Assembly: GCA_963845565.1 (NCBI GenBank) | Contig: CAWJSJ010000002.1 | Location: 672,001-736,000 of the forward strand | Source: an uncultured Methylomirabilota bacterium | GTDB taxonomy: Bacteria > Methylomirabilota > Methylomirabilia > Methylomirabilales > 2-02-FULL-66-22 | Reading direction: 5' to 3' | Length of the DNA: 64,000 nt | Shown: one piece after another, positions 30,001-54,000 of the stretch | Layout of the letters: every line of letters begins with the position of its first letter | Position numbering within the stretch: the stretch's first letter is position 1 | Made by a program: the position numbers

Positions 30001-33000
30001 CCGGCCGAGACGGCGGCGCTCCTGGCCTGCGTGGTGGAAGAGCCGCGGGAAACCGAGACGCTCTTCGCCCGGCAGGTCCTGAAGCGGCTGCCGCATCTCC
30101 GCCGGCGCGTGCAGGGGCTGGAGTCGCTGGCGGCCGAGGTCGACCGCGTCCAGCAGAGCCGGCGGGTGTTCCGGCCGGTCTCGATGCACACCACGTACCT
30201 GGCCGCCACCTACGAGTGGGCCGCGGGCGAGGAGGACTGGATCCGACTCATCCGCGACCACTTCGGCGGCCACGAGGGGGACCTGATCCGCGCCTTCCGC
30301 CGCCTCATCGACCTGTGTCGCCAGCTCGCCGAGAGCCCCGAGCTTCCCGTCGCCCTCCAGGTCGCGCTTCGCGCCGCCGTGAAGATGCTCGACCGCGGCA
30401 TCGTGCTGGAGTCGGCGCTGATTTGAGGCGCGTCGTCACCGCGCGCCGCCGCTCGCAGCGACTTCTTCCTTGCCTCGACGCCGCCGCCTCTGATATAAGC
30501 GAAACGCCCTGACCCTCCCAGTGTCCGCGCCATATGGGGCCCGAATGCGATTCGCTCCTGCCGTGTTGGTCACGCTCCTCCTCGGTCTGTGTCTGGCGAT
30601 CACCAGCGAAGCGGCTGGGGATCTCTCGCGGGACGTGGAGCGCCTGGAGCAGTTGCGAGAGACCGTGAACGTGGACGCCGACCGGATCGAGTACGCCGAG
30701 GGCGTTCGGAAGATCCTGGCCAGCGGGAATGTCCGCGTGATCCTGGGGACCCGCTCGCTGTTTGCCGACGAGGTGTCGGTGGATCTCGACGATCAGGTCC
30801 TGATCGCCTCGGGTGGGGTGATCCTGATGGAGGGGATGAATCGTCTGGAGGGCGACCGGATCGAGTACAACTACCGGACCAACCTGGGCGTCATCACCAA
30901 CGGGCGCGCGACCCTGGACTCGGGCGTGACCTTCAGCGGGGTGGAGATCCGACGGGAAGGGGAGCGTCAGTATTCCGTGCGGGACGCGCGCTTCTCGAGT
31001 TGCCGCCCGTGCCAGCCCGAGCCGGAGATCCTGGATGTGGAGTTTCGGTCCGGCGAGGCGACCGTGTACCAAAACGAAATGATCACCACGCGCCACACCT
31101 CGCTCTGGGTCAAGGGCATCCCCGCCCTGTACTCCCCCGTCCTCGCGCTGCCCATCGGTGAGCGCCGGACGGGATTCCTCATTCCGCGTCTCAGTTATAG
31201 CGGCCACAACGGCTTCGGGGTCAGGCAGCCGTTCTTCTGGGCCATCGATCGCTCCCAGGATGCCACCATTACCCCGATCTATCGCACCAAGCGCGGCTTC
31301 GAGCTGGACGGAGAGTATCGCTACGTCCTGGACGAGCGCTCCCGAGGGGTCTTTCGGGGGCACTACTATTACGATCTCCTGTCCGGGAGCGCGCCCCCGA
31401 ATCGCGGGGACGCGACCTGGGTCCACGACCAGGTCCTGAGTCCCACCTGGACGCTCAAGGTGAATGCCAATTACCAAACGGACCGGACGGTCAATCGGGC
31501 CTTCATCGAGAACCCGACCGCGCAGCGCACTCAGGCCACGGTGGACTCCATCGCGTTCGTGTCCCAGTCGACCTCCCGCTACCTCTTCACCGGGCTGGTG
31601 GCGGCGTCCGAGGATCTGTCCGGTCCGTCCACCAACTGGCTGGTGCGGGCGCCGGAGGTAAATTTCCAGTGGCTGCCCGCCCCGCCCTTCGGGCTGCCCC
31701 TGGTGGCGGAGGGGAACACCTCGGCCGTGCTCTTTGCCCAGACCGACGAGACGAGCACGGGACGATTCGACCTCTATCCCGCGCTCCACCTCCCGCTCTC
31801 GCTGTCCCCCTGGCTGACATCGGCGACCAGCGTGGCCCTGCGCGAGACAGCCTATACGGCGTCCAACCAGGGAGGGGGAGGCGCCAATCGGCTGCTGTTC
31901 GAAGCGGGGCAACAGCTCAGCAGCCACCTCGCGCGGCGATTCGACCAGCCGGGCTTCGGGTTTCAGCGGTTGACCCACATCGTCGAACCCAGTGTGGGCT
32001 ACCTGTACATCCCGTGGGTGGATCAGGACTCGCTGCCGCAATTCAGCGGTGCCGACTTCGTCAGCGGCCAGAATCGGGTGGGGTACCGGTTGGCCAACCG
32101 GCTCCTGGCGCGCCGGGAGGCGGGGGGGAAGTCCGCAACTACGAGCTCGCCAGCTTCTCCATCGCCCAGAGCGTGAACCTTCAGCCGCAGACCCGGGAAT
32201 TCTCCAATCTGTACCTGGAGTCCCTGACGCCGGAGCGGGTGGATCAGGCGGTCACCGATGTGCGCCCGCTGCCAAAAAACGGGTTCAGCCAGGCGACGGA
32301 GCGCCGCTGGTCCAACCTGGTCGTCAAAACGTCGGTGAGCCCGCTGCCGGACCTCAGCCTGTACGGGACGGTGGCGGTCGACGTGCAGTCGCCGGACGTG
32401 GCGGGGATCAACTCGGGGATGGTGTTGCGATTCCTGGACGCCGTCACCTTGGACGTGGGGCAGTCCTATGTTCGAAAGGAGCGGATCGACGGCATCGTGG
32501 GGAAGCTCTCCTGGCGGATCACCCGCGAGCTCACCCTCGACTGGCTGACCAGATATGACATCGCGACCAACACCTTCTGGGAAAACACGGGACACCTCCG
32601 GTACAGCACGTGTTGTTGGAGCGCCACGTTGAATGTGACGAGCGTGGCGCAATCGGTCGGGGTGCCGGCCCAGACCAGCGTTTCGGTAGTCTTCGATCTG
32701 ATATCCCCGACCACGACACCCACCCGCTGACGAGCCGGCCGCGCGCGTCGCGCCTTGTCCCGAGCGAATGCCCGGCTGACCCCGGAATATAAGAGTTGAC
32801 CAGGCGGGCGAAGCCTCTCTAGAATACCGCTCTCGTTGGTAGGATCCGGGAGGGGGGATTCAATGCAGGGGAGTGTCACCCACGCGCCACGTTTGGTCGC
32901 CTGGGAGGTCACGCGGGCGTGCGACCTGGCGTGTCTCCATTGCCGTGCGGTGGCGCAACCGCACGCCGACCCGCGCCAGCTCTCCACGGACGAAGCCTTC

Positions 33001-51000: not shown

Positions 51001-54000
51001 CCTGGGAGAGGACAAAGCTCGCCGCGGATTTTGGGAGATGGGCGGGACTCGCCTGACACAGACGGATGCCAACTACTACGCGAACGCGGGAATCTACAAC
51101 TGGTTCAGGTTTGACTTCGAATACGACCGAATCCCGCATGTCCTCGCCAACAACGCCCAGACCATCTACGCCGAGGCCGCGCCCGGCCTCTTCTTCATCA
51201 ACGGGTCCGTCGCCCAGACCGCCCAGCTCCAAACCGCGCTGAACGCCGCGATCTCGACCCCACCCACCGCGGCCCAACGACTCAACATTATCAACGCGGT
51301 GAACAGCCTCCTGCAGCCGACCCCGCTCCGTTTCCAGACCGACACCGCCAGGTTCGGCCTCAACTGGCTTCCCCTGCCCGACCTGGAGCTCGCGGCCGGA
51401 TACTCGTACGCGACGCGCGAGGGGAAGATCCCTCTCGGGACCGTCATCGGCTCTCCCGGGAGCAACGTGCTGGAGCTGGCCATCCCGCGGGACGAGCGGA
51501 TTCACGAGATCAAATTCGGCGCCGATTACATCCGGAACTGGTATCAGCTCCGTTTCAACTATACCTACTCGCTCTTCGAGAACGAGGTGAACCGGATCGA
51601 GTGGCAAAACCCGTGCGGCACGGGTCCCTCCTGCGGCAACCCCTCCGGGCTGGGTCGCTACTCCACGATGCCGGAGAATTATGCCAACACGCTCTCCGGA
51701 GCCGGGGCCGTCACGCTGCCCTGGTGGGCAACCCGGCTGACCGGGGCACTGTCCTACAGCATGTGGCGGCAGAACGAGACCTTTTTGCCGTACACGACGG
51801 TCCCGGGATATACCGGCAACACGAGCGATGCCGGGGCGAACAGCCCCGACGCCAGCATGAACGTGTTGCTCGTGAATCTTGGGCTGACCGCCCGCCCGCT
51901 CCGGGACGTGACCATTGCGGCCCGGTATCGCATGTACGACCTGGAGAACGATACGCCGGTACAAACCTTCACGAATATCCTCAATCCGGGCGATCTCACG
52001 CCGGCGAGCACCAACAACACTCACACCAGCGAACCCTACGCGTTCCGCAGACAGAACGCGGGCGGGGACGTGTCGTGGCGGATTGCCAAACCCATCACAC
52101 TGCGCGCCGGATACGAGTACGTGCAGTGGAACCGGAAAGACCGGGAGACCGCCAGTACCCATGAGAATATCGGCAAAGCGGTGATGGACGTCCAGCCCTG
52201 GTCGTGGCTGCTGGCCCGCCTCCAATACTCACACGGCGTCCGGGTCATCAACGGAACATACGAGCCGCTGGGCGGAAACGCCACCGCACTCCCGCAATTC
52301 CGGAAGTTCGATCAGGCGGACCGTACCCAGGACAAGGGCGATGTCCTGTTGCAGATCACTCCCATCGACACCCTGACCCTGAGCGGGTCGTTCTATATCG
52401 CAAATGACAACTACTTTAACACCACGTACGGCGTGAATGGCGTGCAGGCACTCGGCTATTCCTTCGACGCGTCGTGGGCGCCCCTGGAGCGGCTCAATCT
52501 TTACGCCGGATGGGTCCACGATCTCTACAAATCGAATCAGCAGAACTGCGCTATCGCCGCGGGGCCACCGACGCCCTGCGACCCGCTGAACAGCTTTGTC
52601 GTGGATCCTCAGGACATGTTGGACGTGGTCCGCGCCGGCGTTAACGTCGTCGTCATCCCGAGCGTACTCGATCTCAGCCTTGGCTATTCGTACTCCTTCG
52701 GGCGAAGCAAATACTCGTTCTCAAGCACTCCGGGTGGTGCGGCGACCGGCGAACCCGCGTCTGTGCCCGAGGTGGAGAACAAGTTCAACATTTTCAACGT
52801 GGTGGCACGCTACTTCATCAACAAGGAGTGGACTCTGAAGCTCGGGTTCCAGTACGAGCGGTACGACGAAAAGGACTTCACGACCGACACGATCCAACCG
52901 TCGGTGGCTGCCGTCCCCGGAACGACCGCCGCGGCGGATCTGCGATCCATCGTGCTCGGCGCGAAGCACCCTTCCTACTCGAATTACATTATGGCGCTGT
53001 CGTTGGCGTATCGGTTCTAGCTGCTGGTAGCGAATCGGCCCGCCACGCCTTGACGGGGCGGCCGGTGCGGCCCATATTATCACCGGGGATCGCAGCGCGC
53101 GGGAACCAGACCCTCTGGCGATCGCAAACGAGAGGGGCGCAGCGTCCCGTGCCGACCATGCCTATCGGGCCTGTCGTGAGGAGGCTTCCATGCGACACCG
53201 CATCGCCGTCGGTTTCTTGCTCGCTCTTCTCGCCGGGTGTGTTGCGCAACAGCAGACGGTGACCCCGCAGCGCTTGCCGGACGAAGCCGTCGGGACTCTG
53301 ACCGCGAAAGAGGCCATCGGGAAGCTCGGGGCGCCCACATACGAGCGGTTGTGCGAGGACGGGAGCACGACGCTTGGCTGGAAGCACGCCGCGCCCCCGC
53401 AAACGAAGCTGCCTGAGCCCGGACGGCTTCTGATTCTTCGGTCGCCGACCGAGCCCAAGGAGTCGCTGGTCTGCAAGTTCGATCAGAACGGCAAGCTCTT
53501 GTGGTGGCGCGAAGTGAAATAGGGGCGGTGGCGCGCCGCCGCGGCGTTCACGGGACCTCGGCTCTGCTCGACTGACGACGATTCCGTACCTGAAATACAT
53601 GCGGCCCCTCCCGTCATGGTGGTCTTGGCGGAAGGGGCCGCATGTATTTCCAGCGATCGGGCGAGGACGCCGGTTCGAGCGGATGGGGCTTGGGCGCGCA
53701 CCGGTCCGGATAAGAGGTTGACGCGATCAGGTACGGCGTCCCGGCACTTGGCCGTGGCTGGGAAAGCGTGGTATAGTCCCGCCGCTCCCGGAAAACTCGG
53801 GGCCGGTACGGCCGCGGAGAGTGGCGCAGGGCGAGAATGGCCGCTCCTCGGGGCCTCACCCGGGGATCGGCGGCGCGGATCACAGATTGGCGGATACGGA
53901 CCGAAACTGCAGCAGACATAAGGAGACAAACGATGAAGGCCTTGATCAAGGACAAGCCCGTCAGAGGCGCCACACTCACCGACCGCCCGATTCCGAAGAT

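What a model noticed while it worked through the whole genome (the two positions that open the first line are those of the whole stretch)
32863..53020. A conserved porin-cytochrome locus links heme synthesis, a 13-heme cytochrome b and MtrAB without MtrC
ahbD-hemB-hemL are followed by a triheme c7, an NADH-linked flavin/Fe-S complex, a 722-aa 13-heme protein fused to a membrane cytochrome b, a sigma-54 two-component pair, a decaheme MtrA (split by a frameshift in the call) and an MtrB/PioB porin. This gives a non-methanotrophic family an inner-to-outer-membrane electron conduit of the MtoAB/PioAB type.
Evidence so far: Gene list and CxxCH counts. MtrB and the 13-heme protein are in 5 of 5 congeners. 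The order c7, 13-heme, TCS, 10-heme MtrA, MtrB behind hemL is kept in G106, G133 and G132, and partly in G124 (contig end); the oxidoreductase insert varies.
(Added by a program. Inside this text positions count along the whole contig: contig position 672,001 is position 1 of the stretch shown here. "Call 12" and the like, gene names such as g00115 and contig names such as C1 are that model's own, and its searches are not shown. The text may have been shortened before it was handed on; [...] marks where a part breaks off. The agent that wrote the report below was given it as the finding of a first reader that could run no searches.)

Follow-up and report, generated by a model that had tools for sequence, protein, structure and literature searches.

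The report
Electron conduit operon of Methylomirabilales
A sediment bacterium carries a complete gene set for passing electrons between its membrane quinone pool and the cell exterior; the parts are known kinds, but the same set is present in the nitrite-dependent methane oxidisers of this order, and in this genus it has three different kinds of NAD/NADP transhydrogenase parked beside it.

Summary
The genes are real. The locus holds a CbcL/MtoC-type 13-heme bc cytochrome, a PpcA-like c7 and MtrAB. No MtrC was found in 41 genomes. The mtrA frameshift is an assembly error (three studies). The architecture is known (MtoAB+MtoC; MtrAB+PetAB of Zixibacteria).

Three things are added. (1) The conduit is not special to a non-methanotrophic family. 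All 10 pmoA-bearing genomes of the order's methanotroph family carry MtrB and the 13-heme protein, as the operon mtrA-mtrB-Rieske-petB-9-heme-c7-13-heme in the 8 read. (2) The 'variable oxidoreductase' is always a transhydrogenase: StnABC (5 genomes, this one included), NfnAB (8) or PntAB (2), in 15 of 15 assessable genomes of the genus. (3) mtrAB has its own sigma-54 promoter (11 of 11 in-locus copies) beside a heme-c sensor kinase, and here it was swapped as a cassette.

Most likely it is an outward respiratory path, NAD(P)H to menaquinol to soluble extracellular acceptors (about 55%); inward uptake remains possible. Direction cannot be read from sequence. Verdict: new variant of a known kind, testable in existing Methylomirabilis enrichments.

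The parts
32863..34020 (+). AhbD-like radical SAM enzyme (oxygen-independent heme synthesis, inferred)
   Evidence: TIGR04545 433 bits (cut-off 500, not met); TIGR04053 399.7 (cut-off 395)
34149..35132 (+). hemB, porphobilinogen synthase
   Evidence: PF00490 E 2e-151; 327-aa frame
35232..35334 (.). 103-nt MITE-like repeat; further copies at 37742-37845 and (partial) 43449-43506
   Evidence: 185 full-length copies in the genome; absent from the first two sites in G009
35345..36625 (+). hemL
   Evidence: TIGR00713 625 bits, over cut-off
36718..37068 (+). periplasmic triheme c7 (PpcA-like shuttle)
   Evidence: 3 CxxCH; PF14522, TIGR04257 over cut-off
37270..37791 (+). StnA / NfnC (NuoE-like, 2Fe-2S)
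   Evidence: PF01257
37868..39634 (+). StnB / NfnB of the Bfu type (NuoF-like with C-terminal 2x4Fe-4S)
   Evidence: PF01512, PF10589, Fer4; Cys pattern
39823..43449 (+). StnC / NfnA (GltD-like NADP(H) module fused to a NuoG-like part)
   Evidence: full-length hits PDB 9bov_A E 1.7e-247 and 8oh5_C E 2.7e-217
43668..45836 (+). 13-heme c + FdnI-type diheme b fusion, CbcL/MtoC/MtrH type quinol/quinone oxidoreductase
   Evidence: 13 CxxCH and 13 further invariant His in 16 of 16 rows; membrane His 494, 536 (16 of 16), 643, 658 (15 of 16, one row truncated); model pLDDT 83, membrane part matches 1kqf_C, E 4e-5, TM 0.81 by target
46054..47616 (+). histidine kinase with a periplasmic heme-c sensor domain
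   Evidence: HAMP/HisKA/HATPase; CxxCH kept in 13 of 13 congener orthologues; look-alike of PF21563 Mcp40H-20 sensor, score 0.93, family on 15-37% of cluster members, a lead only
47613..48998 (+). sigma-54 activator (REC-AAA-Fis)
49084..49476 (+). single-domain receiver
   Evidence: PF00072
49663..49677 (+). sigma-54 -24/-12 element upstream of mtrA
   Evidence: TGGC-N7-TTGC in 11 of 11 in-locus copies of the genus, 0 of 2 stand-alone copies, 2 of 8 in other families; background 0.011 per 400 nt; the motif is the recalled consensus
49718..50708 (+). mtrA decaheme; one extra base in the assembly near 50071-50075
   Evidence: TIGR03508 219 bits for the C-terminal piece alone (cut-off 192)
50723..53020 (+). 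mtrB/pioB porin; with the 3' part of mtrA a swapped cassette
   Evidence: PF11854, TIGR03509; 6r2q_B E 1.4e-13; identity to G009 breaks off at 50061 and resumes at 53566
53190..53522 (+). small predicted lipoprotein without heme motifs, BamE-like look-alike; not an MtrC
   Evidence: 0 CxxCH; Atlas score 0.93 to a BamE cluster, a lead; also in G013

Best explanation
An anaerobic respiratory locus that sends electrons outward. Catabolic NADPH (and ferredoxin) is balanced into NADH by the cytoplasmic transhydrogenase. Complex I reduces menaquinone. The 13-heme bc cytochrome oxidises menaquinol and hands electrons along its bis-His chain to the c7 shuttle, as CbcL does to PpcA. c7 feeds MtrA inside MtrB, which reduces soluble extracellular acceptors (humic quinones, chelated Fe(III)/Mn, perhaps electrodes or partner cells) without an MtrC. 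The heme-c sensor kinase and sigma-54 activator switch on mtrAB separately. In most relatives a Rieske-PetB-9-heme complex gives a second, Q-cycle exit to the same shuttle; this genome's clade lacks it. SHOWN: genes, families, motifs, synteny, promoter element, cassette swap. INFERRED: every electron-transfer step, the direction, the acceptor, the direction of the transhydrogenase, and that the kinase pair controls that promoter.
For: CbcL to PpcA is the established outward route in Geobacter (PMC9129911 abstract; PMC12307469 passages), and c7 lies next to or near the 13-heme gene in the loci read. G000 has MqnC over the cut-off, complex I and 2-oxoacid:ferredoxin oxidoreductase genes just downstream. 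There is little need for uphill flow to fix CO2: only RuBisCO-like scores (E 1e-20 to 1e-32) in 4 of 4 genus genomes against 6e-135 in G039, and acetyl-CoA synthase in only 3 of 41 genomes. A transhydrogenase is in the locus in 15 of 15 assessable genus genomes, from three unrelated families. NAD(P)-linked catabolic genes recur beside it: malic enzyme and fumarase in G014, an isocitrate-dehydrogenase-family gene next to stnA in G013, NADP-isocitrate dehydrogenase behind mtrB in G027. The Rieske proteins have CxCHNG and the PetB Qo motif PEW[YF] in 9 of 9 checked, which from general knowledge fits menaquinol oxidation. Near-identical DNA occurs in wetland and freshwater-sediment metagenomes (14 runs of 7 studies hold half or more of the words; one may be the source).
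Against: Castelle et al. read MtrAB+PetAB without outer cytochromes as more likely Fe(II) oxidation (PMC3903129, passage). MtoC sits with mtoAB in Fe(II) oxidisers, and no sequence feature separates oxidising from reducing CbcL/MtoC (PMC6295460 section 10). G000 has an oxygen-reductase-type and a NOR-type heme-copper gene (types inferred from score and length), so it could respire imported electrons. The usual textbook direction of all three transhydrogenases is NADPH formation. Stn and Nfn are soluble and have no direct contact with the conduit. G004 has Stn (85-89% identical) but no 13-heme or MtrB match; G018 keeps Stn and the 13-heme gene but not mtrAB; 7 of 8 Nfn-type genomes also have PntB elsewhere. 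No transhydrogenase lies beside 20 of 20 mtrB loci outside the genus. Several relatives have Qrc/ACIII-like molybdo-FeS-NrfD clusters beside mtrAB, and Qrc is known (recalled) to run inward.
Confidence: 0.55

Rival explanations
1. Inward, Mto-like uptake. Fe(II), reduced humics or a partner cell feeds MtrAB, c7 passes electrons to the 13-heme bc protein acting as quinone reductase (or to oxidases and nitrite reductase), reverse flow gives NADH, and the transhydrogenase turns it into NADPH for biosynthesis.
For: No MtrC in 41 genomes. mtoAB+mtoC precedent in Gallionella ES-2 and Dechloromonas RCB. The Zixibacteria reading. NADP reduction is the named physiological reaction of Stn in acetogens (PMC10482914 listing; PMC7483475 passages). 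G000, G012 and G002 have acetyl-CoA synthase, and G000 has terminal oxidases.
Against: No HiPIP in 5 of 5 genomes and no monoheme gene in this locus. The shuttle is a c7, low-potential in Geobacter (recalled). Most genus genomes show no CO2-fixation marker. Methanotrophs already have an electron surplus (own stoichiometry, see full report).
Confidence: 0.25
2. The conduit is real, but the transhydrogenase is not part of its electron path. It sits there because the region is an anoxia-induced island and supplies NADPH for heme synthesis, cytochrome c maturation and anabolism. This can be true together with either direction of flow.
For: ahbD-hemB-hemL lie upstream on the same strand. mtrAB has its own promoter. 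The link is confined to one genus. Nfn is known to cluster with ferredoxin-dependent enzymes and complex I (PMC3903129), and such genes flank this locus. Stn persists without mtrAB in G018 and without the 13-heme gene in G004.
Against: In G013 stnABC stays joined to the 13-heme gene while c7 and hemL are no longer upstream. Nfn and Pnt sit between the 13-heme gene and the sensor kinase, not next to hemL. In G000 and G014 the in-locus enzyme is the only transhydrogenase found.
Confidence: 0.35
3. A reversible redox valve or interspecies wire rather than mineral respiration: MtrAB exchanges electrons with humic shuttles or partner cells in either direction according to the periplasmic redox state read by the heme-c kinase.
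For: MtrCAB can be run both ways and direction cannot be inferred from genes (PMC8805035). The sensor CxxCH is conserved. mtrAB alleles are swapped and lost among close kin.
Against: No direct evidence. Allele swapping of a surface porin can equally reflect phage pressure or drift.
Confidence: 0.2

Closest known systems
MtoAB + MtoC (+MtoD) of Gallionella capsiferriformans ES-2 and Dechloromonas aromatica RCB; MtrH + MtrABC of Rhodoferax ferrireducens (PMC6295460)
   Same: A CbcL-family bc cytochrome in one cluster with a decaheme and its porin; 13 hemes lie inside the reported range of 3-23.
   Different: The shuttle is a triheme c7, not monoheme MtoD; transhydrogenase, heme genes and a heme-sensing sigma-54 pair are in the locus; Methylomirabilis and NC10 are not named in that paper's text or three supplements.
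Geobacter sulfurreducens CbcL - PpcA (PMC9129911)
   Same: Bis-His multiheme c domain fused to a diheme b membrane domain, paired with a c7.
   Different: 13 instead of 9 hemes, five long membrane helices in the model instead of six, and an MtrAB instead of a Pcc conduit, all in one locus.
Mtr-PetAB cluster of Zixibacteria RBG-1 (PMC3903129)
   Same: MtrAB without MtrC beside a Rieske/cytochrome b complex and multihemes, as in the methanotroph operon and the Nfn-type congeners.
   Different: The window's own clade lacks the Rieske/PetB/9-heme module; in the passages read, RBG-1's NfnAB is in a separate cluster.
StnABC of Sporomusa ovata / NfnABC of Caldicellulosiruptor (PDB 8OH5, 9BOV; PMC7483475, PMC11829005)
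   Same: Three subunits, same domain order, full-length similarity and cysteine motifs.
   Different: Gene context: inside an electron-conduit locus rather than beside Wood-Ljungdahl genes; exchanged for NfnAB or PntAB in congeners.
Geobacter SfrAB NADPH oxidoreductase (Coppi et al. 2007; only the title seen, role recalled)
   Same: SfrB and SfrA are homologous to the two halves of StnC (PMC7483475); a possible analogy for feeding NADPH into extracellular respiration.
   Different: SfrAB has no NuoE/NuoF partners in the comparison read; whether it lies near conduit genes was not checked.

Membership tests
MtrAB-type porin-cytochrome | decaheme MtrA/DmsE-family cytochrome | tested here: met
   2+8 CxxCH; TIGR03508 over cut-off; G015's intact close relative hits 6r2q_A at E 3.8e-58; frameshift is an assembly error
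MtrAB-type porin-cytochrome | adjacent MtrB/PioB barrel | tested here: met
   TIGR03509 272.9 over 240; 14 nt behind mtrA
MtrCAB | MtrC/OmcA surface decaheme | tested here: not met
   TIGR03507 over cut-off in 0 of 41 genomes, no match in G000; the 19 frames with 2 or more CxxCH in G000 were listed and six of them scanned without an MtrC hit
PioABC | periplasmic HiPIP PioC (feature recalled) | tested here: not met
   PF01355 in 0 of 5 genomes including G000
MtoABCD | monoheme MtoD in the cluster | tested here: not met
   no free monoheme gene in the locus; small monoheme genes do flank mtrAB in G024, G032, G169, G191
MtoABCD | Fe(II) oxidation, inward flow | not testable with these tools
   direction is not readable from sequence
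CbcL/MtoC/MtrH | N-terminal multiheme c domain (3-23 CxxCH), bis-His | tested here: met
   13 CxxCH and 13 other invariant His in 16 of 16 rows
CbcL/MtoC/MtrH | C-terminal HydC/FdnI-like cytochrome b with conserved His | tested here: met
   PF01292 over cut-off; His 494, 536, 643, 658; fold match 1kqf_C
CbcL/MtoC/MtrH | six membrane helices (four to five in a few members) | tested here: inconclusive
   five long helices after residue 420 in the model; hydropathy gave four plus the signal peptide
CbcL/MtoC/MtrH | sequence clade with CbcL, MtoC or MtrH | not tested
   no named reference sequence on hand; only PDB 28pb_A 'Cytochrome c' matched residues 32-175 (E 7.6e-9), identity not established
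StnABC / Bfu-type NfnABC | NuoE-like + NuoF-like with C-terminal 2x4Fe-4S + GltD/NuoG fusion | tested here: met
StnABC / Bfu-type NfnABC | HxxxCxxxCxxxCP and CxxCxC...C motifs, NADP-type GxGxxA | tested here: met
   H96-C100-C104-C108-P; C572-C575-C577-C583 (one residue longer than the published motif); GGGNTA (motifs from PMC7483475)
StnABC / Bfu-type NfnABC | NAD- and ferredoxin-coupled bifurcating activity | not testable with these tools
   needs enzyme assay
NfnAB (congeners) | adjacent NfnA and NfnB genes matching solved NfnAB | tested here: met
   G020: 5jca_S E 7.5e-100, 4ylf_B E 1.6e-180
PntAB (G014, G002) | PntA1, PntA2 and PntB genes | tested here: met
   PF01262, PF12769, PF02233; G014 PntB is below the NCBIfam equivalog cut-off (445 of 689) and its PntA1 was called only in part
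AhbD heme b synthase | TIGR04545 over cut-off | tested here: inconclusive
   best hit, but 433 of 500; position before hemB-hemL fits

The most novel reading that the evidence does not exclude
The conduit is an old, core respiratory chain of the Methylomirabilales, kept in every pmoA-bearing genome sampled. Nitrite-dependent methanotrophs use it to shed the electrons they do not need for making O2 onto humics, Fe(III) or electrodes, which would lower nitrite demand from 8 to as few as 6 per 3 methane. The heterotrophic sister genus has three times recruited an unrelated transhydrogenase into the locus to couple its NADP pool to the same chain.
Probability: 0.25. Interest if true: 0.88.

Novelty: new variant of a known kind. 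Interest (0 to 1): 0.62.

Why it matters
Methylomirabilis is treated as a nitrite-only methane oxidiser. A complete quinol-to-surface operon in all 10 pmoA-bearing genomes sampled gives named genes and a numerical prediction for testing extracellular electron exchange in enrichments that already exist. That bears on methane sinks in nitrite-poor, iron- and humus-rich sediments and on methane bioelectrochemistry. The repeated placement of three unrelated transhydrogenases suggests that NADP-pool balancing goes with such conduits, a link my one search for it did not find in print. As a gene architecture alone it is a new arrangement of known parts.

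Tried and rejected
- 'Special to a non-methanotrophic family': rejected.
- 'mtrA is a pseudogene': rejected. G012's mtrA and mtrB are also broken by frameshifts; error and decay could not be told apart, so this was not counted either way.
- 'The Fe-S/flavin complex is a formate dehydrogenase or complex I fragment': rejected; the best full-length matches are Stn/NfnABC, and G000 has separate NuoF paralogues.
- 'Stn marks a Wood-Ljungdahl clade': acetyl-CoA synthase in only 2 of 5 Stn genomes, plus G002.
- 'Transhydrogenases accompany this conduit generally': not supported; none beside 20 mtrB loci outside the genus. Among the 77 loci L044-L120, matches over 60% identity were only in three Methylomirabilota records and one 2.7-kb contig, L093.
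- Rex- and FNR-like boxes (recalled consensus) and sigma-54 elements upstream of ahbD, c7, stnA, nfnA, the 13-heme gene and the kinase: none found. The sigma-70 and terminator scan gave 3 promoter-like sites against 1.5 expected, plus a hairpin at 45892-45918 after the 13-heme gene; not used as evidence.
- RNA run X15 has contigs over c7, mtrA, mtrB and parts of other genes, but contigs may include DNA and cannot rank genes; not counted as expression.
- A hemB query was one base out of frame. The concatenated tree was rebuilt with the right frame and gave the same groups. The MtrB tree is a quick search, and the ahbD and hemL single-gene trees were not obtained.
- Three of my five look-ups of earlier findings by place or sequence returned nothing, as did one by words.
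- No complex prediction was run.

Full report
Observation. The 722-aa protein has 13 CxxCH. In an alignment of 16 full-length homologues, 13 further histidines of the periplasmic part are invariant, so all hemes can be bis-His; His 494, 536, 643 and 658 are kept in the membrane part. An AlphaFold model from 33 sequences (pLDDT 83, pTM 0.68) has five long membrane helices, and its only fold match under E 0.001 is the cytochrome b subunit of formate dehydrogenase N. This is the CbcL/MtoC/MtrH architecture (PMC6295460, passages and section 10). The mtrA break is an assembly error: contigs from three of four runs laid, from three studies, lack one base at 50071-50075; the fourth has no cover there. 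The closest named records are Methylomirabilota. G000 has one mtrB, and no MtrC/OmcA model passed its cut-off in 41 genomes.

Distribution. The 13-heme query matched 34 of 41 genomes, including weak hits to related multihemes; 17 of 20 congeners have a hit of 56% identity or more. MtrB was found in 21 of 41 (10 of 20 congeners) and in 66 of 200 genomes of the phylum at least 80% complete. pmoA was found only in family f7 (5 of 41). Within f7, 10 of 20 genomes have pmoA; all 10 have the 13-heme protein and MtrB. I read the gene order in 8 of these 10 (G026, G030, G033, G036, G039, G052, G057, G058) and in G063: mtrA-mtrB-Rieske-petB-9-heme-c7-13-heme on one strand, often followed by a 16-17-heme NapC-like gene. 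G058 has a molybdoenzyme-FeS-NrfD cluster inserted after mtrB, and G039 has a second mtrAB in front. In the closed genome G052 the gaps are 5-282 nt. There the operon lies beside gatCAB-type genes, not heme genes (read from N-terminal sequences, not scanned). The 9-heme-Rieske-PetB-c7 module also lies with mtrAB in 5 of 15 loci read from other families of the class, and the Rieske/PetB pair lies by the 13-heme gene in Eisenbacteria records. The quick MtrB tree groups by family, which fits long vertical inheritance in the order.

The oxidoreductase slot. The window's three genes are StnABC/NfnABC (PDB 9bov E 1.7e-247, 8oh5 E 2.7e-217), with the published motifs. Of 18 genus genomes with the 13-heme orthologue, three end at a contig end inside the gene (G003, G007, G008). 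All other 15 have a transhydrogenase in the locus: StnABC in G000, G009, G012, G013, G018; NfnAB with a rubrerythrin-like gene in G001, G005, G006, G011, G015 (NfnB only, contig end), G017, G019, G020; PntAB in G002 and G014. For 11 the gene shares a contig with the 13-heme gene; for 4 (G001, G002, G015, G017) it adjoins the kinase/regulator pair on another contig. Stn lies upstream of the 13-heme gene, Nfn and Pnt downstream. The five Stn genomes showed no PntB and no NfnA; G014's only PntB is the in-locus copy; 7 of 8 Nfn genomes have PntB elsewhere and 3 have a distant StnC elsewhere. On a tree of eight locus proteins the Nfn genomes form one group (SH-aLRT 100, with G003 and G007), four Stn genomes another (100) with G018 next to it at weak support, and the two Pnt genomes branch near the root at weak support. 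So the 15 cases are about three events, not 15. Three unrelated families landing within about 12 kb of one gene in 5-Mb genomes is unlikely under random placement (roughly 0.5% each, my estimate), but I defined the category after looking, and energy genes cluster anyway. Against a tight link: G004 has Stn without any conduit match, G018 lacks mtrAB, and none of 20 mtrB loci outside the genus has a transhydrogenase. The Rieske-PetB-9-heme module is in the locus in the Nfn group and missing there in the Stn and Pnt genomes read; G002, G008 and G014 have it elsewhere, and G000 has no orthologue, only a distant Rieske/cytochrome b pair.

Control and exchange. An exact sigma-54 element lies before mtrA in 11 of 11 in-locus copies of the genus, 0 of 2 stand-alone copies and 2 of 8 copies in other families, against 0.011 expected per 400 nt. 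The kinase keeps a periplasmic CxxCH in 13 of 13 orthologues and resembles Geobacter-type heme sensor domains (a lead). That this pair drives mtrAB is inferred. G000 and G009 are 82-92% identical in DNA up to 50061 and again from 53566, with no alignment between. G000's kinase groups with G009 and G013 (100/100), but its MtrB groups with G015 and G006. The outer part of the conduit was thus exchanged, with the left break inside mtrA after the second heme motif.

Mechanism. I favour outward flow (0.55): NAD(P)H and ferredoxin, transhydrogenase, complex I, menaquinone, 13-heme bc protein, c7, MtrAB, soluble acceptor. The supporting genes are present in G000. CbcL to PpcA is the shown outward route in Geobacter. 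CO2-fixation markers are scarce in the genus, narG was not found in 5 genomes, and G000 has several NiFe-hydrogenase-family matches. For the methanotrophs, the recalled stoichiometry 3 CH4 + 8 nitrite frees 18 electrons from methanol; 6 go to methane monooxygenase and 6 to the six nitrite needed for 3 O2, leaving 6 that are normally spent on two more nitrite and the extra O2. An outward conduit could take these 6; an inward one has no obvious use. This is my calculation, not a result. Inward flow stays open (0.25): Castelle et al. argued for it from the same absence of outer cytochromes, and neither MtrA/MtoA nor CbcL/MtoC sequences tell direction.

Known and new. CbcL-type genes beside mtrAB/mtoAB were reported for several species (PMC6295460), MtrAB+PetAB for Zixibacteria (PMC3903129), and mtrA was noted in passing in some Methylomirabilota MAGs from Lake Baikal (PMC10386581, passages). 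I did not find the operon described for Methylomirabilis in searches. The comparative genomics paper PMC6094997 has no hit for multiheme, porin, Rieske, bc1, decaheme or extracellular in its text; only 542 characters of its supplement were held, so its tables may list these genes. One search (transhydrogenase + porin-cytochrome + NfnAB) found no paper. The library lacks most subscription journals. Graf et al. 2018 on M. limnetica and Coppi et al. 2007 were not seen and may bear on novelty. Seen as passages only: PMC11008690, PMC11302344, PMC6137239, PMC11829005, PMC7483475, PMC7894505, PMC12307469, PMC8805035, PMC3903129 and bioRxiv 10.64898/2026.03.26.714105. PMC9129911: abstract. PMC10482914: search listing.

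Verdict. A real, intact locus of a known kind, in a new arrangement. Interest 0.62.

Noticed in passing
window 35232-35334, 37742-37845, 43449-43506: A 103-nt MITE-like element with an internal hairpin, 185 full-length copies in G000 (mean 89% identity), mostly inserted after TA and ending in TAA. It is absent from two orthologous sites in G009; one copy replaces the stop of stnA and extends it by about 14 residues.
   Followed up: partly
L133-L134 (G011), L038-L039 (G006), L150 (G017), L151 (G019), L172 (G015), L131 (G027), L140 (G025), L164 (G022): Tandem arrays of two to four CbcL-like modules (9-13-heme gene plus cytochrome b gene, split or fused), followed in most by 13- and 16-heme NapC-like genes: several quinol interfaces in one operon.
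   Followed up: partly
L129-L034 (G039): A pmoA-bearing genome has a molybdoenzyme-FeS-NrfD cluster, two 780-aa diheme proteins with Ig-like (ASH) repeats and a second, divergent mtrAB in front of the standard operon.
   Followed up: no
L041, L037, L034, L188: MtrA of the pmoA-bearing family has heme 3 as CxxxCH, so a CxxCH count gives 9, and a Cys after the signal region that may make it a lipoprotein.
   Followed up: no
L189, L190, L193, L197, L204, L040: Across the phylum mtrAB often adjoins pentaheme + molybdoenzyme + FeS + NrfD clusters with QrcA/QrcB-like scores below cut-off.
   Followed up: partly
L065, L068, L073, L078, L080, L085: Records (Eisenbacteria or unnamed bacteria) carry a 42-CxxCH cytochrome near the 13-heme gene and a Rieske/cytochrome b pair.
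   Followed up: no
window 57467-62971: An archaeal-type CDC48 AAA ATPase and a four-subunit 2-oxoacid:ferredoxin oxidoreductase lie downstream in most congeners; the alpha subunit is split here, probably another assembly frameshift.
   Followed up: partly
L181 (G000:C2 about 497 kb): Acetyl-CoA synthase cluster, in pieces in this assembly; found in 3 of 41 genomes of the order.
   Followed up: partly
L035, L125, L128: In three pmoA-bearing genomes a formate-dehydrogenase-like gene pair (900 and about 720 aa) lies about 10 kb behind the conduit operon on the other strand.
   Followed up: no
L093: A 2.7-kb contig labelled Bryobacteraceae has StnC (65%) next to the 13-heme gene (75%): misbinning or transfer.
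   Followed up: no
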